Positions 20,362 through 56,779 of a DNA stretch of 64,000 nucleotides are shown here, piece after piece. The notes under the pieces are model-generated. The model worked only from the letters and a program-made list of their open reading frames with translations, was not told where the DNA came from and did not search any database. The number at the start of each line of letters is the position of its first letter. Positions within the stretch are counted from its first letter, which is position 1. The position numbers were made by a program, and so were the translations under genes. The stretch comes from an uncultured Fibrobacteraceae bacterium (GTDB taxonomy: Bacteria > Krumholzibacteriota > Krumholzibacteriia > LZORAL124-64-63): NCBI GenBank assembly GCA_964524645.1, contig CAZGEC010000002.1, forward strand, positions 5,005 through 69,004. The letters are read 5' to 3'.

Positions 20362-23300
20362 CTACTTCACGAGCGTCAACTTGCGGACCCGGCGCTCACC
20401 ACTGGATCTGAGCACTGAGAAGTAGACGCCGGAGGCCACCCGCCGGCCGTGGCTGTCCACTCCGAGCCAGGTGACCTCATGGTGGCCCGGGCCGAGCCGA
20501 TCGCTGACCAGGGTGGCGACCTTCCGTCCCGAGATGTCGTACACCGCCAGCTCGACCTGCCCGGCCTGGGGCAGGTCGAACCCGATGACGGTCCTGGGAT
20601 TGAAGGGATTCGGGGAGTTGCCGCCGAGGGTCAGCTCCGACGGCAGGCTGACGAGGTCCTCGGTCACGCCCGAGAGAATCCCCCGGTCCGCCGTGAGCAG
20701 GAAGTCGTCGACCCCGGCCTCGACCAGCGATCCCGACGCGTCGTCCGAGGCCACGAATCGCACCTGCACCTGATCAGTCAGGGTGATGAAGTCGGTCAGC
20801 TCGAAGGTAAACTGGGTCCACTCGGCCAGGGTCTGCTGGGTGTGTTCCAGGCTGACCCAGTTGACGCCGTCGCTGGTCACGTCGACGGCCCACCAGTCCT
20901 GGTCCGGCGCGCTCCCCCAGGAGTTGGTGTACCAGCGATAGTAACTGATGGTGGCTGAGAGTGCGTCGCTCAGGTCGAACACCGGGGTCAGCAGCGTTGT
21001 CTTGCCGTTGTCCACGTCGTTCTCTCCGGCGGCGCCGCCCAGCGAGCCGTTGCCGGTAACGAAGCACAGCGCGCCCGCGTCCGGCGAGGAGTCGTCCTCC
21101 ATCTGGATCACATGACCGTCGTACTCGGTGCCGATGGGGTCGACCCGCACCCAGATGCCGCTCGTCGCATCATCGCCCGGAGCGCCCACTGTCCAGCCGC
21201 GGTCGGTCTCGAACGCATCGAACCAGCCGCCGACGGGCAGCTCGACGTCCAGATCGGCCAGGAAGCCGTTGGCCGCCGTGATGTTCAGGTCGAGGGTGAG
21301 AGTGGAGGGCGAGGGGCAGTCGGGCAGGATCTCCACATTGAACGACCCGATCCAGCCCTCTCCGGATACCGGCACGGCGGTGCAGCTACCGCTGCTCTGG
21401 TGCACGATCACGTTGGGGTCGGCGCAGGACAGCGTTCCGGTCAACACGTCAGCGGCCGAATGCCCGGTATTGCCGAGGCGCACTTGCAGGTTGACGGTCT
21501 CGCCGCTGTCCGCGCCGCCGTTGCCGTCGCCGATCAGATCGGTGACGAGGATACCCTGCGGTTCCAGGACCGGGGCCTGGGCCACGAGGGTGAAGCTGCC
21601 CTCCCAGCCCTCCTCGCTCCCGTTGATCGACAGGTTGAACATGATGGGGTGGCCATCGGGAACGTCTCCTGCGACCCGGACGGGATAAGGTGAGAGCGAG
21701 GTGCCGGAGCCGCCGGACGGGATGTCCGGGAAGGAGCTGGGCCGGAGATCCACCTGGACGTTTGGATCGCCGGAGCCGAGAACCGCGCTGACGCCCGTGG
21801 CGGTCTCGGTGCCCACGTTCTCCAAGGTGATCTCGATCTGGGCCCTCTCACCTTCGTCCAGTACGCCGTCCATGTCCCCTTCGGCATCGTGCACGACCTG
21901 ATCTGCCACGACCAGGTAGGGTCCGGCAGGGGACACCACGGGCACCGCCCGGCGGTAGCGGTAGTGGTTCTGCTTGGTCACCGTCACCACGAATTCGTCC
22001 CCGGGCGGCAGCGGCGGGATCGTGAAGCCGATCGGAGCACCATGGCTGGTGGCCGCGCCGATCAGTTCGCCGGCGACCGACAGGCCGATCAGGGCATCCT
22101 CATCCGCGGTGACGGTGAAGGAGTTCATCCCGCTCACCAGAACCGGAGCGTGATCGACCGCCAGATCCTCGGGCAATTCCGAGAACACGGTCATGAAGGC
22201 GCCGCCGTGGTGGTGGAAAAGATGGTACGTGTCCGCCTTGTAGCTCGAGTTGTAGGGCCAGCTGGAGGCCTGCAGGTAGTACTTGCCGTAGGCGCTGCCG
22301 AAGGCCGGTTTCACGTCGACCGGACCCGGCACGCCGTAGCCGGGATCAAAATCGGGCCACATGAAGTCGTACATGCCCCAGACGTAGGCGTCGTTCACGA
22401 AGGAGAAGGAGGTCTCCGTGGCGGCGATCAGGCCGAGCGCTCCCTGGGCGTGGCGATGGAACACCTCGGCGAAGCACTCGCCGGCCATGTTGTACATCCC
22501 CGTCAGGCAGTTGACGGAGAAGACGAAGGTCAGCTCGTCGTTGTGCAGGCCCGTCAGGTTGCCGATCTGGTAGGAGGGTTCGCCCCAGCCGGACGTCGCG
22601 CCGTGATCGCGGTGCTGCAGGATGAAGGCGCCCGCGTTCACGTCGTTGTTTATGCGGCTGGCGCTGCCCCCCCAGTCGGTCAGGTACGAGGGAGTGGCGG
22701 GTATGTACCCGAGCCCGCTGGGCCCGAAGTAGTTGACCACGGTGGCGGTGTTCGACGCGGTCGACCACGACGAGCCGGGCGAGCCTTCGTAGATGGCGTA
22801 TTCGCGCACCGGCGTCTTGCCTTGTACGTTGTTGAAGTAGCCGAACAGGACTTCGCTGCAAAGGATGAACCAGCGTTCGGTCTGCCAGCCGCCGGCGATG
22901 ATCGGATGGGCGTAGAAGCCGGGATCGGTGGGCGGTTGCCGCTCGTAGTTCAGCATCTTGCCGATCATTCCCGCCAGCTCCGCCTCGTTGCGGGCGGTGA
23001 TGCGGGCGGGGACCATGTCGGGAAGGCCGTCGCCGTCCACGTCGGCGTACATGTTGTCCGATGCGATGCTGGCCAGGTGGCCCGAGTAGAAGGGCGTGAT
23101 GAGCCCGCTGGAGCCGGTCCCGTAGTCGCCCAGCAGCAGGAACGCCGCCGGCGGGATGTCCCAGGTCTGATAGGCGTTGTTCAGGTAGCCCTCGATGGCG
23201 CTGGTCGTGTTGCCGCCGATCTCGCCGACCGTGGCGATGTCGGTGAGGATTCCCTGCTCGCTACGCCAGAGCTTGAGGGTGTCGGCCCAGGCCACGAACT

Positions 23301-24087
23301 CGGGGGAATCCTGGCAGATGATCAGGTACTCGCAGCCGGTATCCCGCGCACCGGACTGGACCTGGTCGTCGATCTCTGGCAGGGAGGCGTAATTGACCAG
23401 CAGATCCTTCATGATCGGGTCCCACCAGCGGCTGCGCAGGCGGGGCTGGCCGAACTCGCCGCTGCCGCCCTGGAAGCTCACCTCGATCTGCAGGTCGCGA
23501 TAGACGAGCAGCTCCTTGCTGACCGGGTTGTACTGGAACGGCGTGATGCCCAGCAGCACGGTGGCAACACCGCGGATCTGCTGCAGGCCAGACAGGAGGG
23601 CTGGAGCCTCCGGGTAGAAGGCGTCGCGCTGGTAGATCGCATCGTTGATGGGGTAGTCCAGGGGACCGTCCTCGGTTTCCAGGGGCAGGCGGGGCGCCGG
23701 CGCCAGATCGATGTCGCTCAGAGTCTCGGTCCGCATGGCCACGATCCGCAACGAGACCTGGGCCCCGTTGGGTACCGCGATGTACCAGCCCTGGCCGGGC
23801 AGGTTGGGCGCGCCGGCATCGTTGGGCAGCAGCATGCCCGGTACGTTCACCGTCTGCCTGGTCTGGCCGTCGATGTCGATCGTGCCGAGCTGCCAACTGT
23901 CCAGGGAGAAGGCGAGCTCGACCCTGTCGGAGGCTTGCTGCAGCAGGGTCAATCCCGGATCGCCGAAGCCGTCGGTGTAACGGAAGTCGGTCGCCAGCAG
24001 CGGGGTTGCGACCAGCAGGATCAGAAAGCAGGTGATGAAGTTCGTCGCCGGCCTTCGCAAACGAGGAGAATCATGTCGTAGGGCCAT
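20362..24087 (-). CDS. peptidase C25 (gingipain-like cysteine protease) with a T9SS C-terminal sorting domain
   Basis: The gingipain catalytic region has His (RDHGATSGWG) and Cys (VNCLTGMY). The signal peptide is MALRHDSPRLRRPATNFITCFLILLVATPLLA. The C-terminus NPFNPRTVIGFDL...VYDISGRKVATL...SGVYFSV is a T9SS/FlgD-Ig-like CTD. The start is at Met 24087; the track starts at GTG 24120. Confidence 0.8.
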   Translation of the reverse strand: MALRHDSPRLRRPATNFITCFLILLVATPLLATDFRYTDGFGDPGLTLLQQASDRVELAFSLDSWQLGTIDIDGQTRQTVNVPGMLLPNDAGAPNLPGQGWYIAVPNGAQVSLRIVAMRTETLSDIDLAPAPRLPLETEDGPLDYPINDAIYQRDAFYPEAPALLSGLQQIRGVATVLLGITPFQYNPVSKELLVYRDLQIEVSFQGGSGEFGQPRLRSRWWDPIMKDLLVNYASLPEIDDQVQSGARDTGCEYLIICQDSPEFVAWADTLKLWRSEQGILTDIATVGEIGGNTTSAIEGYLNNAYQTWDIPPAAFLLLGDYGTGSSGLITPFYSGHLASIASDNMYADVDGDGLPDMVPARITARNEAELAGMIGKMLNYERQPPTDPGFYAHPIIAGGWQTERWFILCSEVLFGYFNNVQGKTPVREYAIYEGSPGSSWSTASNTATVVNYFGPSGLGYIPATPSYLTDWGGSASRINNDVNAGAFILQHRDHGATSGWGEPSYQIGNLTGLHNDELTFVFSVNCLTGMYNMAGECFAEVFHRHAQGALGLIAATETSFSFVNDAYVWGMYDFMWPDFDPGYGVPGPVDVKPAFGSAYGKYYLQASSWPYNSSYKADTYHLFHHHGGAFMTVFSELPEDLAVDHAPVLVSGMNSFTVTADEDALIGLSVAGELIGAATSHGAPIGFTIPPLPPGDEFVVTVTKQNHYRYRRAVPVVSPAGPYLVVADQVVHDAEGDMDGVLDEGERAQIEITLENVGTETATGVSAVLGSGDPNVQVDLRPSSFPDIPSGGSGTSLSPYPVRVAGDVPDGHPIMFNLSINGSEEGWEGSFTLVAQAPVLEPQGILVTDLIGDGNGGADSGETVNLQVRLGNTGHSAADVLTGTLSCADPNVIVHQSSGSCTAVPVSGEGWIGSFNVEILPDCPSPSTLTLDLNITAANGFLADLDVELPVGGWFDAFETDRGWTVGAPGDDATSGIWVRVDPIGTEYDGHVIQMEDDSSPDAGALCFVTGNGSLGGAAGENDVDNGKTTLLTPVFDLSDALSATISYYRWYTNSWGSAPDQDWWAVDVTSDGVNWVSLEHTQQTLAEWTQFTFELTDFITLTDQVQVRFVASDDASGSLVEAGVDDFLLTADRGILSGVTEDLVSLPSELTLGGNSPNPFNPRTVIGFDLPQAGQVELAVYDISGRKVATLVSDRLGPGHHEVTWLGVDSHGRRVASGVYFSVLRSSGERRVRKLTLVK

Positions 24088-24236
24088 GGAGATCTCCTGG
24101 ATCGGGGGGTGAAGGTGCACCTGGGGTCCAGAAAGCGCTCCCCGATGATGTCCGGCTGCGATGCAGAATCAATGGCCGCACCGTTTGCGGGGATAGTACC
24201 ACGAGGGCCGGGGGTCAGGCAATTCACAAGGCCCTG

Positions 24237-24258
24237 GCCCGGATCATTCATGATCCGG
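24237..24258. promoter_or_regulatory. perfect palindrome CCCGGATCAT-tc-ATGATCCGGG upstream of the C25 peptidase gene
   Basis: It lies ~150 nt upstream of the start, just above a TTGCCT-N18-TACTAT promoter-like match on the minus strand. Confidence 0.3.
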
Positions 24259-24372
24259 GATAAAGGAGAACAACACGCTTGTATCCTGTTGCCAGGAAGC
24301 AGCACCTCGGACCTCAGCGTGCCCGGCCTGGTCCTGCCGATCGTCCGTCGCCGAGGTCGCATCTCCGAAGGA

Positions 24373-24407
24373 ATGGCCCCGGGCCGGAGCCCGGGGCCAG
24401 AGGAAGG
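24373..24407. repeat. GC hairpin element ATGGCCCCGGGC-cgga-GCCCGGGGCCAGAGGAAGG (copy 2), 3' of the second T9SS substrate gene
   Basis: Its stem and 3' flank (CAGAGGAAGG) are the same as copy 1. Confidence 0.5.
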
Positions 24408-24426
24408 TCCGACTAGACGTTCCGTA

Positions 24427-26415
24427 TCACTTCAGGATGGTCACCTTCTGCACCTGCATGACCTCGGTGCCGATGCGCAGCCGGGCGAAGTAGGTGCCGC
24501 TGGAGACACGCTGTCCACTCGTGTCGCTGCCGTCCCAGGTGATGCGGTACTCCTGCGGCGCCAGCCGGCCGTTGACCAGCGTCGAGACGAGCTGGCCGCG
24601 TATGTCGTAGATGTTCAGCTGGGTCAGCTCGTTCCGGTTCACCCGGAAGCGGATCTCCGTCTTCGGGTTGAACGGGTTCGGGTAGACCTGCAAGCCGCCG
24701 CCCGCCGGCTCCACCGGCAGCTGATCCCCGACGCCGGTGAATCCGGTCAGGGTGATGTACTCGTCCGCCAGCGGGATGATGTTGCGGCTGTAGTAGAAGT
24801 CCATGAAACCCTCGACCAGCACCACGTCACCGATGGTCGGATCGTAGGACAGGGTCACGTAGGGATCGACGTGGCAGGAGTCGGCCCGCGCGCCCGTATC
24901 CGAGATCAACCAGGCCAGCAGCACGGTGCCGCCGGTGTCCATGATCCGATCCACGACCTGGGCATAGTACGTCTTGATCCAGACGCTCTCGTAGGCCTCG
25001 CCCAGGTTGCCGTTGCCGTCGTCCAGCGTGTTGTCCGACAGGTCGCGGGTATGCGCCCTGGTCGGCGGGGGCAGGTCGTTCCCGTAGGAGACGAGGTACA
25101 CGGCCGACGGCTTGTGGGGATTCAATTCCGTCAGACCGTAGTACTCGTCGACGACGCCGCCGACCCGGACCCGGTCGCCCCGCAGGACGAAGTTGGCGGC
25201 CGTGCCCTCGTAGACCAGCACGCCGCCCCACTTGTAGGTGCCGGGATCACCCACCCCTGCGCCGTGGATGACGGGATCGTAAGGCAGAGGCTCCTGCAGG
25301 ATGAACTTGCTGTCCGCCTGCACCTGCCCCGTGCCAGCCGTGACGATGGCCTCGATGTTGATGGGCTTGCCAACAAAGGGGCTGCCCTGGTAGACGCTGT
25401 CCGGATGCGCCCACTGCATGGCGTAGATGGACGTGGTGCCGATGGCGAACGACAGGAACACGCCCGGGGCCGCGCCCGGGTTCTTGGTGGTCAGACCGTC
25501 GCCATCCAGCGTCTGGAGGTAGAAGTCCACCTGGCTGTTGGTGTGGGGCGCCGGGATCGTCCCCTCGTAGGTGTCCCCCGAGGTGTTGGTCATGGGTACC
25601 GAGGACCAGGTGCCCGTGCCGCTGCCGTCGCTGTTTCGATAGTACAGCGTGGCGCTGGAGATCGTCATCGAGCCCACCGGATCGAAGATGCTCGCCGAGA
25701 CCGTGACGGGCTCGCTCGCCAGAGGCGCCCAGTTGTCGCAGTCGATGCTCTCGATCACGGGGTAGTTGGTGACGATGTCGCTCTGCTTGCGGGGCTTCAG
25801 CTCGATCAGCCCGTTGTAGACCGTCACGGGCGAGATCACGCGGATCTCGTCGCCGTTGCCCAGGCCGCTCAGGTCGATCCCGGTGTCGCTGTCGACGTAC
25901 ACGATGATCGTGTCACCGGCCCCGTTGTGGAGGTTGAACGGATTGCTGCCGGCCCCGTCCACGAAGCCGGGGACCGACGCGAAGTTGCCGACCTGCTCGT
26001 AGTTGAACGGGTGCACCAGGTCGGCGATCGGCGTGTCGGTGGGGACCGGAACGGTGCCGCCGGGGAGAATGGTGATGGTCGGGGTGGCGAGTTGGATCTC
26101 GCCCTGGAACGTGCTGACCGTTCCCGTGACCTCGACTCGGTCACCGTAGGTCAGCGGCGGCGCGGCCGCCGCGAAGAACTGGATGCCGCCGGTGGCGCCC
26201 AGGATGTAGTGCGTGCCCGTGTTGTAGGTCCCCTTGACCACGTAGATGTCTCCCGTGACCGTCACCACCTGGCCGTTACAGGGGCTGGCCGGGGCGCCGG
26301 TTACGGGATCGTACTGCTGGATCTCGTCGATGGTAGAGCACGGCTGGGCCCAGGCCATACTGGCCAGCAGGGCACCTGCGAGCAACACGAGTGCGCCAAA
26401 AAGATGCTTCCTCAT
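24427..26415 (-). CDS. secreted hypothetical protein with a T9SS C-terminal sorting domain
   Basis: The signal peptide is MRKHLFGALVLLAGALLASMAWAQP, and AAGGAGG lies upstream of the ATG. The CTD is NPFNPKTEIRF...IYDIRGQLVSTL...SGTYFARL. The start was set at 26415; the track ORF extends to 26505. Confidence 0.7.
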   Translation of the reverse strand: MRKHLFGALVLLAGALLASMAWAQPCSTIDEIQQYDPVTGAPASPCNGQVVTVTGDIYVVKGTYNTGTHYILGATGGIQFFAAAAPPLTYGDRVEVTGTVSTFQGEIQLATPTITILPGGTVPVPTDTPIADLVHPFNYEQVGNFASVPGFVDGAGSNPFNLHNGAGDTIIVYVDSDTGIDLSGLGNGDEIRVISPVTVYNGLIELKPRKQSDIVTNYPVIESIDCDNWAPLASEPVTVSASIFDPVGSMTISSATLYYRNSDGSGTGTWSSVPMTNTSGDTYEGTIPAPHTNSQVDFYLQTLDGDGLTTKNPGAAPGVFLSFAIGTTSIYAMQWAHPDSVYQGSPFVGKPINIEAIVTAGTGQVQADSKFILQEPLPYDPVIHGAGVGDPGTYKWGGVLVYEGTAANFVLRGDRVRVGGVVDEYYGLTELNPHKPSAVYLVSYGNDLPPPTRAHTRDLSDNTLDDGNGNLGEAYESVWIKTYYAQVVDRIMDTGGTVLLAWLISDTGARADSCHVDPYVTLSYDPTIGDVVLVEGFMDFYYSRNIIPLADEYITLTGFTGVGDQLPVEPAGGGLQVYPNPFNPKTEIRFRVNRNELTQLNIYDIRGQLVSTLVNGRLAPQEYRITWDGSDTSGQRVSSGTYFARLRIGTEVMQVQKVTILK

Positions 26416-26694
26416 CCTTTCGGCCTCCTTATTGTTGTGGAGAAAGAACTGCGCTTCCGCGAACAGTGTCGTTGTCAAGTGTCGGACAGCGAGTGGAAAG
26501 GACACGTGTTCCGAGACGACAGTCTCCTGGAGAAAGCTCGCGAGCGCCGTGCTCGCGAGACGCTCACCTCCTCCCTTCCGCTAGGACGGTTGAGGACGGA
26601 CGGTTGCTTTCTGGAAGGCATTGTATCACACGAAATCGGTGATTTCCATGAACTTCAGGTAAAAAAGAGGTGATGAACGCTCGCTTATCGCCGG

Positions 26695-28266: not shown

Positions 28267-28722
28267 TCAGGTTCTGCGCTGGCGCGGCTGCTTCAGGCTT
28301 CCGGGCGGCAAGATCCAGAGTTCGGTATCTCCCAGCGCGGTGAGCACAGTATCCGCGAGATTGGAGCGGTTCGCCGCCTCCGCTCCTCCGCCGCCCTCAC
28401 CGGACGCGGTGAAACCGACAGGACGGGTGCGGAAGACGGCCCCGTTCTGCAGCACGGCCCGGGTGACCTCCCGCCCGTCGGCGAGGAACTCGCTCACCCG
28501 CAGCTTGCCGCGTCGCACCACCGCGTCGATCGCCGCCGGCGGGTGGAAGAGCTGGGTGGGCACGAGCGATACGATCCGGCGTTCCCGCTCCAGCTCCCGC
28601 AGAAGGTTCCGTTCGGCGGCAAAGAGGCGGGCGTCCCGCACGAAGCTGAACCAGACCTCCGGCGGCGGCAGGGGCCTGTCCAGGTCGTCCAGCTCCGTGC
28701 CACCTCGCTGCTGCTCGCTCAT
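28267..28722 (-). CDS. hypothetical protein, possibly a cNMP-binding-domain fragment
   Basis: RRGKLRVSEFLADGREVTRAVLQNGAVF resembles a cNMP-binding beta-barrel. Start trimmed to the internal Met. Confidence 0.35.
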   Translation of the reverse strand: MSEQQRGGTELDDLDRPLPPPEVWFSFVRDARLFAAERNLLRELERERRIVSLVPTQLFHPPAAIDAVVRRGKLRVSEFLADGREVTRAVLQNGAVFRTRPVGFTASGEGGGGAEAANRSNLADTVLTALGDTELWILPPGSLKQPRQRRT

Positions 28723-28811
28723 GCGCTCCTCGCGCCTCCGGGGTCCGGCGATTCTCGTCCGTCCACGCTGCCGCAGGCACGATACCACAGGCGTCGCGGC
28801 CCTGCCACGCC

Positions 28812-28840
28812 TTGACATTCCGCGCCGGGCCGCCTATGCT
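28812..28840 (+). promoter_or_regulatory. sigma-70 promoter TTGACA-N17-TATGCT driving the TPP riboswitch
   Basis: Read directly. The TSS is ~7 nt before the riboswitch P1. Confidence 0.5.
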
Positions 28841-28848
28841 GGGCCCGT

Positions 28849-28929
28849 CGTTCCGTTAGGGGTGGCTACGGCCTGAGAGAGACCCTCCGAACCTGAACCG
28901 GATCATACCGGCGTAGGGAAACGGGAACG
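28849..28929 (+). ncRNA. TPP (THI-box) riboswitch
   Basis: GGGGUGGC...CUGAGAgagACCCuccGAACCUGAaccGGAUcAUaCCGGCGUAGGGAA matches the THI-box consensus. The P1 stem is CGUUCCGU / ACGGGAACG. Confidence 0.85.
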
Positions 28930-28945
28930 CGAGACTCTCCCTCTG

Positions 28946-28980
28946 CAACCGGCCCCCTCGGAGCCGGTTTTTTCGGCTCC
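28946..28980 (+). terminator. riboswitch expression platform: terminator hairpin AACCGGCC...GGCCGGUU plus U6, with an alternative GGAGCCG...CGGCUCC pairing
   Basis: Read directly. The U-tract is at 28969..28974, and the GGGAGG SD and ATG 29015 follow. Confidence 0.55.
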
Positions 28981-29014
28981 GCCATCGACGACTTCCTTTC
29001 CGGGAGGTCCCGCC

Positions 29015-31519
29015 ATGTCCGCTCCGCAGCGTGCGTCCGGACTGCGCGCGAGTGCGGCGCTCCTGCTCGCCGCGTGTCTGCTGGCCGGCGGCCCGGCGGC
29101 CGCCGGCGAGGTCCTCGGCGGACGCGTCACGGACGCCGAGACCGGTCTGCCGCTCGTCGCGGCCAACGTGTACGTGCAGGGCCGTACGACGGGCACCGTC
29201 AGCACCGCCGGAGGCTACTTCAGCCTCCGCAACCCGCCGTCGCAGCCCTTCACCCTGGTCGTCACCTACGTGGGCTACGCGCCTGCGCTCCTGAAGATCG
29301 ATCCCGCGACCCTCGCTCCGGGGCGGGAGCTGTCAATCGCTCTGCAGCCGGTCGTCTACACCCACGAGGAGATCGTGATCTCGGCCTCGCGCTACGGCTC
29401 GGACCTGCAGCTGACCCACACCAACATTCCCGGCGACGAGATCGAGCGGGAGCGGTCCCTGGTCGACATTCCCGTCCTGCTGGAGAACGTGCCCGGCGTG
29501 TACGCCACCAGCGACGCCGGCAACGGCGTGGGTTACACCTACCTGCAGATCCGCGGCTTCGATCAGCGCCGGATCGGCGTGCTGGTCAACGGCGTGCCCC
29601 TCAACGATCCCGAGGACCAGCAGGTCTACTGGGTCGACCTGCCCGATCTGGCCTCCTCGCTGGAGGACATCCAGGTCCAGCGCGGGGTGACGAACTCCCT
29701 GGGCGGCATGCCGGCGCTGGGCGGGACGGTCAACCTGCAGACCGACGTGCTCCCCGTGGAGCCGGGTGGCCGGATCTCGCTGCAGTACGGCAGCTACAAC
29801 ACCTCGAAGCAGACCCTGCTCTACGACACGGGGCTGCTGGGCGGGAGCTTCGCCTCCGGCCTGCGCGTCACCCATCTGGAGAGCGACGGCTACCGGGACC
29901 GGGCGGGCTCGTCCCAGTGGGCGGTGTTCTGGAGCGGGCGCTACGTGACCCCGCACAGCGCCACCGATCTGTACGTCTGGACCGGCCGCGAGCTGACCCA
30001 GCAGGCCTGGTACGGCATCGACGAGGCGACCCTCGCCCGCGACCGCACGGCCAATCCCGAAACCTACCACAACGCGGTGGACGACTTCCGGCAGCCCCAG
30101 GTCCAGCTGCATCACACCCGGGATCTCTCCGACCGGATCTCGCTGCGCAACACCTTCTTCTGGGTCCACGGCGAGGGCTACTACGAGAACTTCAAGGCGG
30201 ACGCGACGGCCCGGGACTTCAGCCTCGACTATTACCTGGGTCTGGCCCCCGACGCCGAGGTGAACCTGGTGCGGCGCAAGTGGGTGCGCAAGGACCAGGC
30301 GGGCTGGTCGCCCCAGCTTAGGGTGGAGCACGCCGGCGGGCGCCTGCTCGTCGGCGGCGACGCCTACACCTTCCACAGCAACCACTGGGGCGAGGTCCTG
30401 TCGGTCGACGGCTTCACCAGCGACCAGCTGGTGGGTGGCCTGAAGTACCACGATTACACCGGCGACAAGCAGGCCTGGTCGGTCTACCTCAACGATCACT
30501 GCGACGTCGTCGGTGGGCTGACCGCGCTGCTGGATCTGCAGTATCAGTACAGGACCTACGACTTCGCCCAGGACGAGCTGGCCAACTTCCGCGGCCTGGA
30601 GCGGAACGCCTACCGCGTGGAGTACGAGTTCTTCAATCCCAAGGGGGGGCTGCACTGGCGGCTGCCCGGCACGGTGGCCGGCGGCCGGATGGCCCTCTAC
30701 GCCCATGTGGGCATCGGCCGGCGCGAGCCCGCGGACAGCGATCTCTTCGACACCTGGCAGGGTCCGGACGACCTGGGCGCGGCCCCGCTGTTCCGCAACA
30801 GCCGTGTGGTCTACCGGGACGACGGCGTGACCGTCGACCACGTGGAGTGGTCGGATCCCATCGTGCAGGAGGAGAAGGTGGTCGACTGGGAGGCGGGGGC
30901 CACCTACCGCAGCGGATGGCTGTCGGCCACCCTGAACGGCTACTGGATGGACTTCACCGACGAGATCGTCCCCTACGGCACCGTGGACGCGGACGGCTTC
31001 GGCATCCGGGGCAACGCCGGCAAGACCCTGCACCGGGGCGTCGAGCTGGGCCTGAGCTGCCAGCCGGCCGCGGGACACCTGATCAGCCTGGCCGCCTCGC
31101 GCAGCTGGGACGAGTTCGAGCACTTCATCTTCCACGACTGGGACGGGACCGCCCTGGACTACTCGGGCAATCCCCTCCCCCTGTTTCCGCGGCACATGAT
31201 CACGCTCCGCTGGCGTGCGACCTGGGGCGCCCTGCAGACGGAGCTGCGGCTGCGGCGGATCGGCAAGCAGTATCTGGACGACACCGGCAACGAGGAGCGC
31301 ACCATCGCTCCCTACGAGACCGTCGACCTGGCCGGCTGGCTCGACCTGGCGCGGCTGGGCCTCGGCGGCTGGGAGGGAGCGCGCGTGGAGCTGCGCCTGC
31401 GGAATCTGCTGGACGCGGAGTACGAAACCAGCGGATACTTCGATGGCTGGGGGGCCGGTAACTACAAGATTCCTGCTGCCAAGCGCAACTTCCTGCTGGG
31501 CGTGCACTACGATTTCTAG
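29015..31519 (+). CDS. TonB-dependent outer-membrane receptor (carboxypeptidase-regulatory-like N-domain, plug, barrel)
   Basis: Signal peptide is followed by the CarbopepD-like VLGGRVTDAETGLPLVAANVYVQG. The TonB box / plug region is EIVISASRYGSD...IQVQRG, and the C-terminus is ...FLLGVHYDF. Confidence 0.9.
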   Translation: MSAPQRASGLRASAALLLAACLLAGGPAAAGEVLGGRVTDAETGLPLVAANVYVQGRTTGTVSTAGGYFSLRNPPSQPFTLVVTYVGYAPALLKIDPATLAPGRELSIALQPVVYTHEEIVISASRYGSDLQLTHTNIPGDEIERERSLVDIPVLLENVPGVYATSDAGNGVGYTYLQIRGFDQRRIGVLVNGVPLNDPEDQQVYWVDLPDLASSLEDIQVQRGVTNSLGGMPALGGTVNLQTDVLPVEPGGRISLQYGSYNTSKQTLLYDTGLLGGSFASGLRVTHLESDGYRDRAGSSQWAVFWSGRYVTPHSATDLYVWTGRELTQQAWYGIDEATLARDRTANPETYHNAVDDFRQPQVQLHHTRDLSDRISLRNTFFWVHGEGYYENFKADATARDFSLDYYLGLAPDAEVNLVRRKWVRKDQAGWSPQLRVEHAGGRLLVGGDAYTFHSNHWGEVLSVDGFTSDQLVGGLKYHDYTGDKQAWSVYLNDHCDVVGGLTALLDLQYQYRTYDFAQDELANFRGLERNAYRVEYEFFNPKGGLHWRLPGTVAGGRMALYAHVGIGRREPADSDLFDTWQGPDDLGAAPLFRNSRVVYRDDGVTVDHVEWSDPIVQEEKVVDWEAGATYRSGWLSATLNGYWMDFTDEIVPYGTVDADGFGIRGNAGKTLHRGVELGLSCQPAAGHLISLAASRSWDEFEHFIFHDWDGTALDYSGNPLPLFPRHMITLRWRATWGALQTELRLRRIGKQYLDDTGNEERTIAPYETVDLAGWLDLARLGLGGWEGARVELRLRNLLDAEYETSGYFDGWGAGNYKIPAAKRNFLLGVHYDF

Positions 31520-31553
31520 CGCGGGTGCCGGCCGGCACGACCACCGGAGCTGC

Positions 31554-32276
31554 ATGTCCACGCTGGAATCGCGGAGCGGGGGCGGCGAGTTCTGCCCCAT
31601 CTTTCTGAAGGAAGGCCCCCGGGCCGTCGTCCTCTGCGACGGTCCGCCGCCGCCGCCGCCGCTGCTCGACTACTGGCTGCAGGGAGTGGACCTTTTCGTC
31701 TGCACCGATGCCGCCGGTCATCCCTACGACCACCTGCCCCGCCTGCCGGACATCGTCATCGGGGACTTCGACTCGCTGACCGGGCGCATCCTGACCGGGA
31801 AGAACGGCCCGCGCTACCTGCTGGTGAAGGAGCAGGAAACCACCGATTCGGAAAAGGCGCTCCTCTACGTGGTCGAGCAGGGTCTGACCGAGGCGGTCCT
31901 GCTCGGCGCCGCCGGCTGGCGCCTGGACCACACCCTCTTCAACTGCTTCCTGCTGGAACGCTTCGCCGACCGGCTGCGCGTCTGCCTGGCCGGTCACCAG
32001 TCCGACGCCGTGCGCGTCGCCCCGGACCAGCCGGTGGTCTGGCGTCTGGATCCCGGGACCGGCTTCTCCCTCCTGCCCCTGGCTGGAGCGGCCTCCGGCG
32101 TGACGGTGGAGGGGGCACGCTACCCGCTGCGCAACGCCATGATCCGGGCCGGCGGCCCGGCCACCATCTCTAATCGCGTGCTGACCTCCCCCCTGCGGAT
32201 CACCCTGGGCGAAGGTTCGCTCCTGGTGACCGTGGATCGCGGAGGACGACCCGATCTGCTGGGCGATCTCGACTGA
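31554..32276 (+). CDS. thiamine pyrophosphokinase
   Basis: Contains AVVLCDGPPP, VDLFVCTDAAGH and DIVIGDFDSL. It lies in track ORF 31215..32276, with the start at ATG 31554. Confidence 0.75.
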   Translation: MSTLESRSGGGEFCPIFLKEGPRAVVLCDGPPPPPPLLDYWLQGVDLFVCTDAAGHPYDHLPRLPDIVIGDFDSLTGRILTGKNGPRYLLVKEQETTDSEKALLYVVEQGLTEAVLLGAAGWRLDHTLFNCFLLERFADRLRVCLAGHQSDAVRVAPDQPVVWRLDPGTGFSLLPLAGAASGVTVEGARYPLRNAMIRAGGPATISNRVLTSPLRITLGEGSLLVTVDRGGRPDLLGDLD

Positions 32277-32278
32277 TC

Positions 32279-33664
32279 ATGCTCCTGGCCGCGGTCTACA
32301 TCCTCTTCCTCGTCTACGTGGTGCTGCGTCTCTTCCGCCGGCCTACGGGGAATGCCGCGGACTACCTCGTGGTCGGCCGGCGCCTGACCCTGCCCGCCTT
32401 CGTGGCGACGCTCGTTGCCACCTGGTACGGGGGCATCCTCGGCGTGGGGGAATACGCCTGGCGCTACGGCGTGAGCAACTGGCTGGTCTTCGGGGTGCCT
32501 TATTACATCGCGGCGGGCATCTTCGGCCTGTTCCTGGCCGGCCGCATCCGGCGCAGCCAGGTCCTGACCATTCCCGACCAGCTGGAGCGCCGGTACGGGC
32601 GGGGCACCGCGCTGCTGGGCGCTGGGGTGCTCTTCGTCATGACCGCCCCGTCGGCCTACGTGCTGATGCTCGGGGTGCTGGTCCGCCTGGCCACGGGCTG
32701 GCCGCTCTGGGTGGGAGTGGCCCTCGGGACCGCGCTCTCGGTGGGCTACGTCTTCCGCGGCGGGCTGCGGGCCATCATCACCACCGACATGGTGCAGTTC
32801 GGCCTGATGTTCCTGGCCTTCCTGGTGCTGGTGCCGACCTGCATCGCGCGCTACGGAGGCTGGGAGTTCCTGAAGGGAGCGGTGCCACCGAGCCACCTGA
32901 CCTGGGATGGGGGCCGGGGCTTCCAGGCGGTGGCGGTCTGGTACGTCATCGCTTTGGCGACGCTGGTGGAGCCGGCCTTCTACCAGCGGTGCTACGCCGC
33001 CTCCAGCGAGCGGACGGCGCGGGCCGGCGTCGGGATCTCCATCCTCTTCTGGATCTTCTTCGACTTCCTGACCACGACGGCCGGCCTCTACGCCCGCGCG
33101 GTGCTGCCGGACCTGGCCGATCCCGTGGCGGCCTTTCCGGCCCTGGCCGAACGGACGCTGGCCCCCGTCTGGCAGGGTCTGTTCACCGTGGGGTTGCTGG
33201 CCGCCATCATGTCCACCGTGGACAGCTACGCCTTCATCTGCGGCATCACCGTGGGCCGGGACATCGTGCAACGCTGGCGGGCTCCGCGCGGAGCGAGCCC
33301 CGGCACCGGCCTGCTGGCGGAGGACGCCATCTCGCTGCGACCGATCCGCTGGGGATTGCTGGCCACGGCGGTCCTGGCGGTCGTGTTGGCCCTCTGGGCC
33401 GGCTCGGTGGTGCGGCTGTGGCACGATCTGGGCAGCATCGGGACGCCGGTCCTCCTGCTGCCCCTGGCGCTGGGCCACGGCCGGGCCGCACCGCGCGGCC
33501 GCTGGGTCCCGGCCGCCATGGCCCTCTCCGGGGGCACCGCCCTCGCCTGGCTGCTGCTGGGCGCGGGCCGGCCCTTCCTGGGGGTGGAGTCCATCTTCCC
33601 GGGCCTGGCCGTCTCCCTGCTGGTGCTGCTGCCGGGATGGTTCCGGGGGCGGACGGCCGCCTGA
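32279..33664 (+). CDS. sodium:solute symporter (SSF) family transporter
   Basis: 13-TM protein with SSF N-terminal blocks (YLVVGRRLTLPAFVATLVATWYGGILGVGEYAW). It starts 3 bp after the TPK stop. Confidence 0.8.
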   Translation: MLLAAVYILFLVYVVLRLFRRPTGNAADYLVVGRRLTLPAFVATLVATWYGGILGVGEYAWRYGVSNWLVFGVPYYIAAGIFGLFLAGRIRRSQVLTIPDQLERRYGRGTALLGAGVLFVMTAPSAYVLMLGVLVRLATGWPLWVGVALGTALSVGYVFRGGLRAIITTDMVQFGLMFLAFLVLVPTCIARYGGWEFLKGAVPPSHLTWDGGRGFQAVAVWYVIALATLVEPAFYQRCYAASSERTARAGVGISILFWIFFDFLTTTAGLYARAVLPDLADPVAAFPALAERTLAPVWQGLFTVGLLAAIMSTVDSYAFICGITVGRDIVQRWRAPRGASPGTGLLAEDAISLRPIRWGLLATAVLAVVLALWAGSVVRLWHDLGSIGTPVLLLPLALGHGRAAPRGRWVPAAMALSGGTALAWLLLGAGRPFLGVESIFPGLAVSLLVLLPGWFRGRTAA

Positions 33665-33690
33665 GAGGGGCTGGTCCGCCGACGAACGAA

Positions 33691-33716
33691 GGCCCCGATC
33701 CCGGGGGATCGGGGCC
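33691..33716. terminator. GC hairpin GGCCCCGATCCC-gg-GGGATCGGGGCC between the convergent SSF and htrA genes
   Basis: The perfect inverted repeat was read directly. Confidence 0.5.
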
Positions 33717-33743
33717 GGTCGTCCGTCGCGTCAGGGGCGGCGG

Positions 33744-35261
33744 TCAAGGAACCTGGATCGCCGTGAAGAAGGTGACCTGTCCGCGGCGCACCAGCAGGGC
33801 CGCGGATTCCCCGCTCTTGAGCCGGGACACGACCTTGTTGAACTCGTCCACCGACGTGATCTCGGTGCGATTCACTTCCTGGATGAGATCGCCACGCTGC
33901 AGGCCCGCATCCTCACCCGCCGATCCCGCCGCCACGTCCGCCACCAGCGCGCCCTGCTGATTCTCGTAGCCCAGCTGCTGGGCCAGAGCGGGCGTCAGGC
34001 TCTGGATGGTCAGGCCGAGCTTCTCCTGCATCTGGGGTTGCTGCTGCGGGGACTGCTGCTCGCCGGCCTTGGCGTTCTCCGGACGCTCGCCCAGCTTCAC
34101 GTCGATCGTCAGCTCCTTGCCGTTGCGCAGCACGGTCAGCTTGACCGTCGAGCCGGGCTGCATCATGGCGACCTTCTCCCGCAGCTCGACGCTGTCCTTG
34201 ATCTTCTCCCCGTTCAGCTCGGTGAGGACGTCGCCGCGCTGCACGCCGGCCTTGCCGGCCGGTCCGTCCGGCACGACGTCGCCCACCAGGCAGCCCGAGG
34301 TCGTCTTCAGGTTCAGGGCCGCCGCCAGGCTCTCGTTGATGTCCTGCGGAACGAGCCCGAGGTAGCCGCGCGTGACCTTGCCGTGGGAGATCAGGTCTTC
34401 CATGACGGTCTTGGCCATGTTGATGGGAATCGCGAAGCCGATGCCGACGTTCCCGCCCGACGGGGTGGAGATGGCGGTGTTGATGCCGATGACGTTGCCG
34501 TCCAGATCGGCGAGGGCCCCGCCGCTGTTGCCGGGATTGATGGAGGCATCGGTCTGGATGAAGTCCTCGTAGTCGGCCAGGCCCACCGAGGAGCGACCCT
34601 CGGCGCTGATGATGCCCGCGGTGACGGTGTGCAACAGCTGGAACGGGTTGCCCACGGCGATGACCCACTCGCCGATCTTCAGCTCGTCCGAGTTGCCCAG
34701 CGTGGCGGCGGGAAGATCGTCGCCCTCGATCTTGATGACGGCCAGATCCGTCTGCGGATCCGTGCCGACGATCTTGGCGGAGTACTTCTCGTTCTTCTGC
34801 AGGAGAACCGTCAGCTTGTCGGCCCCATGCACCACGTGGTTGTTGGTCAGGATGTATCCGTCCTTGCTCACGATCACGCCGCTGCCGAGGCTGTGCACGG
34901 TCTCCTTTTGATCCTGCTGGGGAACCGTGCCGAAGAAGCGCTTGAAGAAGTCGTCGCCGAAGAACTGACGGAAGGGGCTGTCCGGCGAGCCGAAGGGGCT
35001 GGCCACCTCCACCACCTGCTCGGCGTAGATGGGGATGACCGAGGGGCTGACCTTGCTCGCCGCGGCCTCGAAGACGGCGCTGAGCTGGTTGGCCAGGGTA
35101 CGGCCCTCGCTCGTGGCGGCCAGCGAGGATTGAGCTTTGGCACTGTCCTGCCGCGTGCAGGCGGGCACGAGAGCCAGTCCCGTGACCGCGGCCACCGCCA
35201 GCGCCAACCCCATGGTCGTGATGCGGCGATGATGACGAAGGCTACTCTTCACTCGAAGCAT
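33744..35261 (-). CDS. htrA: DegP/HtrA (Do-family) serine protease with two PDZ domains
   Basis: Contains GSGVIVSKDGYILTNNHVV, DLAVIKI and INPGNSGGAL, plus two PDZ regions. The start is at Met (MLRVKSS...) 35261, with AGGAGG upstream. Confidence 0.9.
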   Translation of the reverse strand: MLRVKSSLRHHRRITTMGLALAVAAVTGLALVPACTRQDSAKAQSSLAATSEGRTLANQLSAVFEAAASKVSPSVIPIYAEQVVEVASPFGSPDSPFRQFFGDDFFKRFFGTVPQQDQKETVHSLGSGVIVSKDGYILTNNHVVHGADKLTVLLQKNEKYSAKIVGTDPQTDLAVIKIEGDDLPAATLGNSDELKIGEWVIAVGNPFQLLHTVTAGIISAEGRSSVGLADYEDFIQTDASINPGNSGGALADLDGNVIGINTAISTPSGGNVGIGFAIPINMAKTVMEDLISHGKVTRGYLGLVPQDINESLAAALNLKTTSGCLVGDVVPDGPAGKAGVQRGDVLTELNGEKIKDSVELREKVAMMQPGSTVKLTVLRNGKELTIDVKLGERPENAKAGEQQSPQQQPQMQEKLGLTIQSLTPALAQQLGYENQQGALVADVAAGSAGEDAGLQRGDLIQEVNRTEITSVDEFNKVVSRLKSGESAALLVRRGQVTFFTAIQVP

Positions 35262-55087: not shown

Positions 55088-56779
55088 CTAGCGGATCAGA
55101 CCGAGCTTGCAGGCCGGGCCGACCGCCCGCCCGTCCAGCAGGAGGCGGCCGCAGTAGACGCCGCTCGGCAGCTCGCGGCCCGCGGCGTCCCGGCCCTCCC
55201 AGGTGATTCCCTGCTCGCCCGCCGGCCGCTCTCCGCCTTCCAGGCGTGCGACGAGCCGCCCGCGCGCGTCGTACAGCCGCAGGCTCACCTCTCCCGGACG
55301 GGCCAGGACGAAGCGGATCTCCGTGCGCGGGTTGAAGGGATTGGGCCGCCCGCCCAGCAGGGTCGCGGTCCAGGCGCTGCGATCGGTCTGTGCGGGAGTC
55401 CGGGCGTTCGCCACGTTCGAGAGGGCCGAGACGTGGCCCGGCTCGCCGTAGGCGCCCCACTCGTCGAGCACCCGGAGGGCGAAGTAGTAGCGCATACCAG
55501 GCTCCAAGCCGCTCGCCCGTGCCTTCTGCCAGCTCCCGGGTGCGCCAGGCGGCGGTACATCGCTCACCGGCGTGGCCGTGGCGAAGCTGGACGCATCGAG
55601 TGGCTCGGTGGCCCGGCGGAGATCGTAGGCCGCTGCCCTGCCCTCGGTGCCGTCGTCGCCCGTGGCCGTCCAGCGGAGCAGCAGCGTGGTGCTGTCGGCA
55701 TCGTAGACCGCGAGATCGAGCACGGGTGCGGGTGGAATGCTGTCCGGTTCCGCGAGGGCCCGGAAGGCGTCGAGCCGGCCGCCCGTGATCACCAGGCCCG
55801 CCAGCTCGGGCGTCGCAACGGTGCCGGCAAGGATGCGGGCCTTGACCGCTCCGGCGTCGAGCGCCGGGAAGCGCCCCCGCACCAGAGCGGCCACGCCGGC
55901 CACCATGGGCGTGGCAAACGAGGTGCCCAAGACGTAGTCGAAGCCGCCGCTGCCCGCCGGCACCAGGATGCGCACCCCCGGTGCGGCCAGATGCACGCTC
56001 TCGTCGCCGTAGTTGAAGATCTGCTGGCCGTCGGGTTTCAGACCGGTCACGCAGATGATGTTGGGCAGGTCGTAGCAGCACGGGTACTCCGGCGCGGCGT
56101 CCACGTCCCGGCCGTCGTTTCCCGCGGAGCAAACGATCAAGAGATCGTGCTCCAGGGCGTAGAGGCAGGCCGCGTAAAGGTCGTCGAGATAGTGCTGGGG
56201 GGCGGAGTACGGGATGTCCCAGCTGACGTTGATGACCTCGGCGCCCGCGTCGGCCGCCGCGTAGATGGTCAGGATCCGCGAATCGATGAGTGACGAGCTG
56301 CGCACCGGCAGCAGCGAGACCTCCCAGTTGATGCCGGTCATGCCAAGCCCGTTGTGGCCGACGGCGCCGATGATGCCCGCGATGGCCGTGCCGTGATGGA
56401 CGCTCTTGGGGGTGGGCTCGTTCGCCAGCTCGTAGCCCTTCCCGCCGCGGAGGGGAGGAATGACGATCGCCGGCAGCAGGTTGGCGGCCAGGTCCGGGTG
56501 CCCGGCGAGATCGAAGTCGCTGTCGCTGATCGCCACGATGACGGAGCGCGAGCCCGTCGAGACGTTCCAGGCGGCCGGGGCCGCGATGTCGATGCCGGCG
56601 ATCGCCGGCAAAGGGCCGGCGTTGTCCCCGGTGTTCTGCAGCGACCACTGGTCGGGAAAGCGGGGATCGTCCGGCAGGATGGCCGGAGCCAGCGCGGCGA
56701 TGGCGAGCAGGACGGCCGCAGGGATCGCCAGGAGCCGCCGCCGGGCGGTCGAAACGGATACGCGTCGAGAAGCCATCAC
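55088..56779 (-). CDS. S8 (subtilisin-like) serine peptidase with a T9SS C-terminal sorting domain
   Basis: The His motif is HGTAIAGIIGA and the Ser motif is GTSFATPMVAGVAAL. A signal peptide is present. The CTD is NPFNPRTEIRF...LYDARGRLVARL...SGVYCGRL. Confidence 0.85.
   Translation of the reverse strand: MMASRRVSVSTARRRLLAIPAAVLLAIAALAPAILPDDPRFPDQWSLQNTGDNAGPLPAIAGIDIAAPAAWNVSTGSRSVIVAISDSDFDLAGHPDLAANLLPAIVIPPLRGGKGYELANEPTPKSVHHGTAIAGIIGAVGHNGLGMTGINWEVSLLPVRSSSLIDSRILTIYAAADAGAEVINVSWDIPYSAPQHYLDDLYAACLYALEHDLLIVCSAGNDGRDVDAAPEYPCCYDLPNIICVTGLKPDGQQIFNYGDESVHLAAPGVRILVPAGSGGFDYVLGTSFATPMVAGVAALVRGRFPALDAGAVKARILAGTVATPELAGLVITGGRLDAFRALAEPDSIPPAPVLDLAVYDADSTTLLLRWTATGDDGTEGRAAAYDLRRATEPLDASSFATATPVSDVPPPGAPGSWQKARASGLEPGMRYYFALRVLDEWGAYGEPGHVSALSNVANARTPAQTDRSAWTATLLGGRPNPFNPRTEIRFVLARPGEVSLRLYDARGRLVARLEGGERPAGEQGITWEGRDAAGRELPSGVYCGRLLLDGRAVGPACKLGLIR

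What the first reader, a model, noticed from the sequence alone, without database searches (positions are those of the whole stretch)
28812..33664. TPP riboswitch controlling a TonB-dependent receptor, thiamine pyrophosphokinase and SSF transporter operon
A TTGACA-N17-TATGCT promoter is followed by a textbook THI-box aptamer (CUGAGA...ACCC...GAACCUGA..GGAU.AU.CCGGCGUAGGGAA, P1 CGUUCCGU/ACGGGAACG). Next comes a terminator/antiterminator platform with a U6 tract, then the SD and ATG of a TonB-dependent receptor. A thiamine pyrophosphokinase starts 34 bp after the receptor stop, and a sodium:solute symporter starts 3 bp after the kinase stop. The arrangement mirrors the Bacteroides thiamine-salvage locus (OMthi-PnuT-TPK under a TPP riboswitch). 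Here a sodium:solute symporter family (SSF) transporter replaces PnuT.
Basis: partly seen in the sequence, partly recalled or inferred. Interest (0 to 1): 0.65.

Follow-up and report, generated by a model that had tools for sequence, protein, structure and literature searches.

The report
Thiamine-sensing switch controlling a vitamin uptake operon
A real TPP (vitamin B1) riboswitch sits in front of a three-gene operon for an outer-membrane receptor, a thiamine kinase and a sodium-coupled inner-membrane transporter; the layout is shared by many related bacteria and was noted once before, so it is a solid but largely ordinary finding.

Summary
Rfam RF00059 matches window 28848-28936 (+) at 71.3 bits, against a gathering score of 54.3. 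It lies just after the only sigma-70-like promoter in the region. Behind it come a hairpin with a U6 tract, a Shine-Dalgarno (SD) site and three tightly packed genes. These are a TonB-dependent receptor (29015-31519), a thiamine pyrophosphokinase (TPK, 31554-32276; TIGR01378 above cutoff) and an SSF/SLC5-fold symporter (32279-33664).

The module is strongly conserved. I examined 80 loci anchored on symporter relatives, out of at least 590 species genomes across FCB-group phyla. Of these, 62 carry a TPP aptamer on the same strand, 14 are cut off upstream, and only 4 lack it. In 58 of the 62 the aptamer sits upstream of an adjacent receptor gene. In the other four the aptamer-proximal gene is the symporter, with the receptor downstream.

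The symporter does not belong to the known TPP-regulated ThiV/SSSP clade and is not a PanF equivalog. It occupies the slot that PnuT holds in Bacteroides OMthi-pnuT-tnr3 operons.

The same arrangement (riboswitch, receptor, symporter, kinase) was already noted in Caldithrix abyssi in 2017. I therefore class this as a new member of a known kind. The open point is that the symporter clade has never been tested experimentally.

The parts
28812..28840 (+). Sigma-70-like promoter, TTGACA (28812-17), 17-nt spacer, TATGCT (28835-40). The transcription start is inferred at about 28847, two bases before P1.
   Evidence: 10 of 12 consensus positions, and the only such site in 28500-34200 (shuffles give a mean of 0.3). 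The start-site position is an inference.
28848..28936 (+). TPP riboswitch aptamer (THI element). P1 pairs 28849-57 with 28920-29.
   Evidence: RF00059 at 71.3 bits against a gathering score of 54.3; across 63 homologous aptamers, 98.4% of cells are paired and 7 pairs show compensatory changes.
28850..28964 (+). Candidate antiterminator. The 5' half of the aptamer (28850-55, 28859-62, 28864-67) pairs with 28951-64, which is the terminator's 5' arm, its loop and the start of its 3' arm.
   Evidence: this is the ligand-free minimum-energy fold of 28847-28973 (-45.4 kcal/mol). The aptamer-plus-terminator fold is -44.0. This part is inferred.
28947..28973 (+). Intrinsic terminator T1. Stem AACCGGC(CC)/(GG)A GCCGGUU, followed by the U6 tract 28968-73.
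   Evidence: -13.6 kcal/mol. An equivalent hairpin with a T-run follows the aptamer in 27 of 62 related leaders (3.9 expected from shuffles). These cases are concentrated in the closest clade and use different stem sequences.
28959..28981 (+). Alternative hairpin T2. CGGAGCCGG pairs with UCGGCUCCG, and the U tract forms its loop.
   Evidence: -16.1 kcal/mol. It is conserved in all 12 leaders of the window's type, and L007 carries a compensatory change (GGAGUCGG/CCGACUCC).
28990..29009 (+). Local hairpin GACUUCCU/GGGAGGUC that encloses the SD site GGGAGG (29002-07).
   Evidence: minimum-energy folds. Its regulatory role is inferred.
29015..31519 (+). TonB-dependent outer-membrane receptor, 834 aa, the candidate thiamine receptor (OMthi-like).
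   Evidence: CarbopepD_reg_2, Plug and beta-barrel domains; syntenic full-length homologues at 28-62% identity lie next to the symporter in most loci.
31525..31538 (+). Palindromic hairpin GTGCCGGCCGGCAC in the 34-nt receptor-kinase spacer, with no U tract.
   Evidence: Read directly from the sequence. The terminator scan did not call it.
31554..32276 (+). Thiamine pyrophosphokinase (TPK), 240 aa.
   Evidence: TIGR01378 at 111 bits against 76.4. PF04263 and PF04265; the best solved-structure matches are TPK structures.
32279..33664 (+). SSF/SLC5-fold sodium:solute symporter, 461 aa, the candidate inner-membrane thiamine transporter.
   Evidence: PF00474. AlphaFold2 model with pLDDT 83.6, and TM-score about 0.8 to SGLT2 and CHT1; linked to the riboswitch and receptor across phyla.
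33691..33716 (.). Strong palindromic hairpin between the convergent symporter and HtrA-like protease genes. It probably marks the 3' end of the operon.
   Evidence: Read directly from the sequence. There is no T tract, so a terminator function is inferred only.

Best explanation
This is a thiamine salvage operon repressed by TPP.

When TPP is scarce, one transcript starting at about 28847 is read through. It encodes three proteins:
- a TonB-dependent outer-membrane receptor that captures thiamine;
- an SSF/SLC5-type, probably Na+-coupled, symporter that moves thiamine across the inner membrane;
- a thiamine pyrophosphokinase that converts thiamine directly to TPP.

When TPP is abundant it binds the leader aptamer and locks the 5' strands of P1, P2 and P3. 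That frees 28947-28969 to fold into a terminator hairpin ahead of the U6 tract, and transcription stops before the receptor gene. Without TPP, the aptamer's 5' half pairs with the terminator's 5' arm and loop, so the polymerase reads through.

Shown here: the aptamer, the gene identities, the operon layout and their conservation. Inferred: thiamine as the substrate of the receptor and symporter, and the terminator/antiterminator mechanism.
For: Aptamer: above Rfam threshold, and the structure is backed by covariation in 63 relatives.

Kinase: TPK equivalog above cutoff.

Operon layout:
- The spacers are 34 nt and 2 nt.
- There is no internal promoter.
- The flanking genes are unrelated housekeeping genes, divergent upstream and convergent downstream: iPGM, an HtrA-like protease and FtsH.

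Conservation:
- At least 590 species genomes carry symporter relatives.
- The receptor is adjacent to the symporter in most of the 80 loci examined, and receptor-kinase-symporter occurs in the roughly 24 closest.
- A TPP aptamer is found in 10 of 10 loci by Rfam and in 62 of 80 by a custom covariance model. Of the remaining 18, 14 are truncated upstream.

Mechanism:
- Terminator-like hairpins follow the aptamer in 27 of 62 leaders, against 3.9 expected.
- The ligand-free fold of the window's leader forms the antiterminator at -45.4 kcal/mol. The P1-forced fold forms the terminator at -44.0 kcal/mol.

Precedent:
- Deleting Bacteroides OMthi or pnuT together with the biosynthesis operon raises the thiamine requirement about tenfold (PMC5613172).
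- The same locus layout was noted in Caldithrix abyssi (PMC5317091).
Against: - No transport assay exists for any member of this symporter clade.
- Its nearest characterised relatives carry pantothenate, proline or choline.
- Four of the 80 relatives sit in unrelated contexts with no riboswitch.
- I could not compare the receptor directly with BT2390.
- In 14 of 19 related leaders the terminator forms in the minimum-energy fold with or without the P1 constraint. Thermodynamic folding therefore does not demonstrate switching there.
- The SD site lies in a local hairpin in every predicted state. B. thetaiotaomicron transport riboswitches act on translation (bioRxiv 10.1101/867226). Translational control could therefore contribute or dominate.
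Confidence: 0.78

Rival explanations
1. The riboswitch acts mainly on translation. TPP binding leaves the SD site (29002-07) sequestered, and the hairpin with the U tract is incidental or only a pause site. The conserved third element c (CGGCUCC, 28974-80) would act as an anti-SD strand. Element b (GGAGCCGG) mimics the SD site and would titrate c away when TPP is low.
For: - The SD site is enclosed in an 8-bp hairpin.
- The b-c helix is conserved in all 12 leaders of this type, with one compensatory change.
- In L001, L003, L007, L008 and L009, element c is complementary to the SD region over 6-7 bp (sequences).
- Most distant relatives (Zixibacteria, Ignavibacteria) have no terminator.
- B. 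thetaiotaomicron OMthi and pnuT riboswitches act translationally (bioRxiv 10.1101/867226).
Against: - In the window, c pairs with the SD site over only about 4 bp.
- A GC-rich hairpin followed directly by U6 is the canonical intrinsic terminator.
- That feature is conserved with different stem sequences in the close clade, about 7-fold above the shuffle expectation.
- b-c cannot form until after the U tract has been transcribed.
Confidence: 0.3
2. The receptor and symporter import a thiamine precursor or breakdown product (HMP, AmMP, FAMP or a thiazole) rather than intact thiamine. This is what is proposed for ThiV in SAR11.
For: - TPP riboswitches control precursor transporters such as ThiV, CytX and ThiXYZ (PMC11452348, PMC10881298).
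- In many distant loci no kinase gene lies beside the receptor-symporter pair.
- No thiamine genes other than the kinase are visible in the window.
Against: - The kinase between the two transport genes acts on intact thiamine and bypasses ThiD/ThiE/ThiL.
- No thiD, thiE or thiM was found beside the module, either among the window's predicted proteins or among the neighbours scanned in four exceptional loci. The genes flanking the module in the other related loci were not scanned.
- The symporter is not in the ThiV/SSSP clade.
- The Bacteroides counterpart supports growth on thiamine (PMC5613172).
Confidence: 0.12
3. The symporter has nothing to do with thiamine. It would be, for example, a PanF-like pantothenate or other solute carrier that merely shares the transcript.
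For: The best NCBIfam match is PanF (67 bits), and the family profile scores E. coli PanF highest among the references at 91 bits. Four relatives lie in unrelated contexts.
Against: - The PanF equivalog score is far below its cutoff (67 against 328).
- Linkage to the TPP aptamer and receptor holds in 62 of 66 informative loci spanning many phyla, including four where the riboswitch directly precedes the symporter.
Confidence: 0.05

Closest known systems
Bacteroides OMthi-pnuT-tnr3 thiamine transport operon under a TPP riboswitch (BT2390, BT2396-97; PMC5613172, bioRxiv 10.1101/867226)
   Same: A TPP riboswitch is followed by a TonB-dependent receptor, an inner-membrane transporter and a thiamine pyrophosphokinase, usually as one operon. 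The logic is feedback repression of salvage.
   Different: The inner-membrane component here is an SSF/SLC5-fold symporter, not a PnuC-family PnuT. The gene order is receptor-kinase-transporter. The leader carries an intrinsic terminator, whereas the B. thetaiotaomicron transport riboswitches act translationally.
Caldithrix abyssi locus Cabys_3975-3977 (PMC5317091)
   Same: [quoted passage not shown] A Calditrichota genome (L067) is among the relatives found here and has a riboswitch, receptor and symporter.
   Different: The phylum differs: the window's closest relatives are Krumholzibacteriota-like genomes. The paper mentions the symporter only in passing, assigns it no role and does not analyse the expression platform. 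I did not compare the sequences directly.
ThiV / SSSP (Methylobacillus flagellatus thiV, SAR11_0811, algal SSSP; PMC4260697, PMC11452348)
   Same: These are also PF00474 symporters preceded by TPP riboswitches and are thought to carry thiamine or HMP.
   Different: The clade differs. The window protein scores 27.5 bits against SAR11 ThiV, whereas ThiV scores 140 bits against a diatom SSSP. The window's family profile scores PanF at 91 bits and ThiV at 48. ThiV is not paired with a receptor or the kinase.
PanF and SLC5 transporters (CHT1, SGLT, SMVT)
   Same: They share the LeuT/SLC5 fold (TM-score about 0.8). The MST motif aligns with the Na2-site Ser/Thr of PutP and PanF. The closest solved sequence match is a CHT-type choline carrier.
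   Different: Identity is only about 17-25%, all equivalog models score far below their cutoffs, and the genomic context is specific to thiamine.

Membership tests
TPP riboswitch (Rfam RF00059) | Covariance-model score at or above the gathering threshold over the full model | tested here: met
   71.3 bits against 54.3, model positions 1-105.
TPP riboswitch (Rfam RF00059) | P1-P5 helices maintained by covariation among homologues | tested here: met
   In 63 aptamers, 98.4% of cells are paired, 7 pairs change on both sides, and 0 of 500 shuffles reach the observed value. The alignment was fitted to the model, so it leans towards the structure.
TPP riboswitch (Rfam RF00059) | Binds TPP and changes expression | not testable with these tools
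   Needs in-line probing or reporter assays.
Intrinsic (Rho-independent) terminator expression platform | GC-rich hairpin immediately followed by a U tract, with a competing antiterminator | tested here: met
   The hairpin is -13.6 kcal/mol and is followed by U6. The antiterminator is the ligand-free minimum-energy fold. The feature is conserved in 27 of 62 leaders against 3.9 expected. Function is not shown.
TonB-dependent receptor | Plug domain plus 22-strand barrel domain | tested here: met
   PF07715 at 55.1 bits and PF00593 at 98.3 bits, both above cutoff.
TonB-dependent receptor | TonB box and signal peptide | tested here: inconclusive
   Judged by eye only: a hydrophobic N-terminus ending AAAG/EV, an EEIVISA motif ahead of the plug, and a C-terminal Phe.
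OMthi (BT2390) thiamine receptor orthologue | Closer in sequence to BT2390 than to other receptors | not tested
   No BT2390 sequence was available. Only the shared context (riboswitch and kinase) supports orthology.
Thiamine pyrophosphokinase | Equivalog HMM above trusted cutoff, with catalytic and B1-binding domains | tested here: met
   TIGR01378 at 111 bits against 76.4, plus PF04263 and PF04265. The GDFDS motif is present.
Sodium:solute symporter family (PF00474 / SLC5 fold) | Pfam score above the gathering threshold, and the LeuT-type SLC5 fold | tested here: met
   90.2 bits against 22.8. The model has pLDDT 83.6 and TM-score 0.79-0.83 to SGLT2 and CHT1.
ThiV / SSSP clade | Specific sequence affinity to SAR11_0811 and algal SSSP | tested here: not met
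   27.5 bits to ThiV, against 140 bits between ThiV and SSSP. PanF and PutP score as high or higher.
PanF pantothenate symporter | TIGR02119 equivalog cutoff | tested here: not met
   67.3 bits against 328.
Bacteroides-type OMthi-PnuT-TPK system | PnuC-family PnuT as the inner-membrane component | tested here: not met
   None of the three operon proteins, nor the other roughly 40 window proteins scanned, has a PnuC/NMN-transporter domain.

The most novel reading that the evidence does not exclude
The symporter would define a distinct, never-characterised SSF clade. It would be the standard inner-membrane thiamine:Na+ carrier of many FCB-group phyla (Krumholzibacteriota, Latescibacterota, Eisenbacteria, Zixibacteria, Ignavibacteria, Calditrichota and some Bacteroidota). 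In these it would take the place of PnuT and always work with an OMthi-like receptor. In addition, its leader in this clade would use a conserved three-strand platform (a, b, c) that couples termination with SD-site release, giving dual transcriptional and translational control.
Probability: 0.5. Interest if true: 0.5.

Novelty: new member of a known kind. Interest (0 to 1): 0.35.

Why it matters
Databases annotate these symporters only as 'sodium:solute symporter family protein'. Surveys of environmental vitamin B1 use count ThiV, ThiBPQ, ThiT, PnuT and omr1 (PMC10881298). If this clade carries thiamine, such surveys miss the inner-membrane step in hundreds of FCB-group species.

The riboswitch linkage gives a cheap and reliable rule for annotation. 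It also offers a clear candidate for a first transport assay. Apart from that, the locus is a textbook feedback-controlled salvage operon.

Tried and rejected
- An exact-sequence lookup of the symporter's source contig found nothing on record. Cluster data show only that it comes from a 308-kb NCBI contig.
- The original ThiV paper (Rodionov 2002, PubMed 12376536) is not held. I took ThiV identity from later papers and from the SAR11 sequence in a supplement.
- I suspected the AIRS-family gene at 1427-2413 of being thiL. It is SelD: TIGR00476 scores 337 bits, and thiL scores 92 against a cutoff of 184.
- I tested the antiterminator model in relatives by free versus P1-forced minimum-energy folding. 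This was uninformative: in 14 of 19 leaders the terminator forms either way.
- The built-in terminator scan missed the leader hairpin, because its loop is 9 nt as that scan counts it. It flagged only a weak site inside the kinase coding region (31579-98), with 1.5 such sites expected by chance. I rejected that site as an internal terminator.
- Fold search cannot tell substrates apart. SGLT, CHT1, NIS and SiaT all match at a TM-score of about 0.7-0.8.
- I ran no further search on the receptor, because its top hits would be unnamed close relatives.
Full report
**Observation**

- The only sigma-70-like promoter in 28500-34200 is TTGACA-17-TATGCT at 28812-28840.
- Eight bases after it, Rfam RF00059 matches 28848-28936 on the + strand at 71.3 bits. 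The gathering score is 54.3 and the E-value 4.7e-12. The match covers the whole model and is the only Rfam family found in the 64-kb window.
- The SD site GGGAGG (29002-07) and an ATG at 29015 open an 834-aa ORF. That ORF has CarbopepD_reg_2, Plug and TonB-dependent-receptor barrel domains.
- After a 34-nt spacer, a 240-aa thiamine pyrophosphokinase starts at 31554. TIGR01378 scores 111 bits against a cutoff of 76.4, and both TPK Pfam domains are present.
- Two bases after the kinase stop, a 461-aa PF00474 symporter starts at 32279 and ends at 33664.

**Operon boundaries**

- Upstream lie a conserved small divergent ORF and an iPGM gene on the minus strand.
- Downstream lie convergent genes for an HtrA-like protease and FtsH.
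- A strong palindromic hairpin at 33691-33716 separates the convergent ends.
- Inside the unit there is no promoter-like site. The only terminator-like call is a weak one inside the kinase coding region, where 1.5 such sites are expected by chance.
- I scanned the other roughly 40 predicted proteins of the window and found no further thiamine gene. An AIRS-family gene that could have been thiL is SelD.

**Conservation**

The symporter has thousands of homologues. The best 120 are 64-83% identical and carry only generic names.

A scan of one genome per species found at least 590 genomes with a relative. These span Krumholzibacteriota, Latescibacterota, Eisenbacteria, Zixibacteria, Ignavibacteriales, KSB1, Calditrichota, Fermentibacteria, Gemmatimonadales and Bacteroidota.

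In the 80 best loci, tblastn with the three window proteins gave these results:
- A full-length receptor homologue lies immediately upstream of the symporter in most loci, and downstream of it in four.
- The order receptor-kinase-symporter occurs in the roughly 24 closest loci, often with abutting genes.

Rfam found a TPP aptamer in 10 of 10 loci tested. A covariance model built from those aptamers found one aptamer, on the same strand, in 62 of the 80 loci. It lies upstream of the receptor in 58 of them and directly upstream of the symporter in the four loci with the reversed gene order. Of the 18 loci without an aptamer:
- 14 are cut off upstream.
- 4 (45-50% identity) lie among unrelated genes, with no aptamer even when the search filters are switched off.

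The aptamer structure holds across the 63 sequences: 98.4% of cells are paired and seven pairs show compensatory changes.

**What the symporter is**

- It is not a ThiV/SSSP protein, the SSF clade already known to be TPP-regulated (PMC4260697, PMC11452348). It scores 27.5 bits against SAR11 ThiV, whereas ThiV scores 140 bits against a diatom SSSP.
- The window's family profile scores E. coli PanF at 91 bits, PutP at 53 and ThiV at 48.
- It is not a PanF equivalog (67 bits against a cutoff of 328).
- The closest solved sequence is a CHT-type choline carrier (profile E-value 3e-19).
- The AlphaFold2 model (pLDDT 83.6) superposes on SGLT2, CHT1, NIS and SiaT at TM-scores of about 0.7-0.8.
- The family's MST motif (S312, T313) aligns with the corresponding MST motifs of PanF and PutP. 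To my knowledge, these residues contribute to the Na2 site in PutP.

So the protein has an SLC5 fold and is plausibly Na+-coupled. Its substrate is inferred from context only. It occupies the position that PnuT holds in Bacteroides OMthi-pnuT-tnr3 operons, whose transport genes are needed at low thiamine (PMC5613172). It is also co-transcribed with an enzyme that acts on intact thiamine.

**Expression platform**

Directly after P1 the leader has three elements:
- a, CCGGCC, at 28949-54;
- b, GGAGCCGG, at 28960-67, followed by U6;
- c, CGGCUCC, at 28974-80.

Pairing of a with b gives a terminator hairpin (-13.6 kcal/mol) followed by the U tract. Pairing of b with c gives a stronger hairpin (-16.1 kcal/mol) with the U's in its loop.

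I folded the transcript from the inferred start at 28847, with these results:
- Up to 28940 it forms the native aptamer.
- Up to 28973 without ligand, it forms a 14-bp helix between the aptamer's 5' half (28850-67) and 28951-64. This blocks the terminator, at -45.4 kcal/mol.
- Forcing P1 restores the terminator, at -44.0 kcal/mol.

This near-balance is what a ligand-tipped OFF switch needs.

Comparative support is as follows:
- A terminator-like hairpin with a T-run follows the aptamer in 27 of 62 related leaders, against 3.9 expected from shuffles. These cases are concentrated in the closest clade and use different stems, such as GGCGCC and CGGCACC.
- The a/b/c arrangement is shared by 12 leaders. 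L007 carries a compensatory change in b and c.

There are caveats:
- Thermodynamic folding does not show switching in most relatives.
- The SD site lies in a local hairpin in all predicted states.
- Distant relatives mostly lack terminators.
- B. thetaiotaomicron transport riboswitches work on translation (bioRxiv 10.1101/867226).

I therefore rate transcription termination as the main mechanism at about 0.6. A translational contribution through c and the SD site remains a live alternative.

**Comparison with what is known**

- TPP-riboswitch control of a BtuB-like receptor and of a PanF-like symporter was predicted in 2002, as summarised in PMC2211319.
- The Bacteroides OMthi-pnuT-tnr3 system has genetic support (PMC5613172).

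**Verdict**

It is a new member of a known kind. What remains of interest is that this widespread symporter clade is distinct from ThiV and has never been tested experimentally.

Noticed in passing
window 28267-28818 (-): A small divergent ORF, probably about 151 aa starting from Met33, has no family hit above cutoff. Its only match is a weak cNMP_binding hit (E 0.0016). It is nevertheless 41-51% identical, and in the same divergent position just upstream of the riboswitch, in ten relatives. Those ten all belong to the group that shares the window's leader type.
   Followed up: partly
window 28959-28981 and L001, L002, L003, L005, L007, L008, L009, L014, L015, L033, L058 leaders: A strand after the U tract (c, CGGCUCC) that pairs with the terminator's 3' arm is conserved in 12 leaders. 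The loops vary from 5 to 18 nt, and there is one compensatory change. In five of these leaders, c is also complementary to the SD region over 6-7 bp. Its role is unexplained.
   Followed up: partly
window 31525-31538: A perfect palindrome, GTGCCGGCCGGCAC, sits in the 34-nt spacer between the receptor and kinase genes, with no U tract. It might affect mRNA processing or the relative expression of the two genes.
   Followed up: no
L048, L060, L074, L076: Four symporter relatives (45-50% identity) have no riboswitch, receptor or kinase nearby and sit among unrelated genes. The clade may therefore not be uniform in function or regulation.
   Followed up: partly
L055, L059, L066, L070: In these Eisenbacteria-type loci the order is reversed: riboswitch, symporter, then receptor. 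Here the symporter is the gene next to the riboswitch.
   Followed up: no
window 20362-26505 and 55088-56779: A 1252-aa gingipain-like C25 peptidase, a 692-aa protein and an S8 subtilase all end in FlgD_ig or Por_Secre_tail domains. This suggests type IX secretion cargo, which fits an FCB-group organism.
   Followed up: no
window 33691-33716: A 26-nt perfect palindrome, GGCCCCGATCCCGGGGGATCGGGGCC, lies between the convergent symporter and protease genes, with no T tract on either strand.
   Followed up: no
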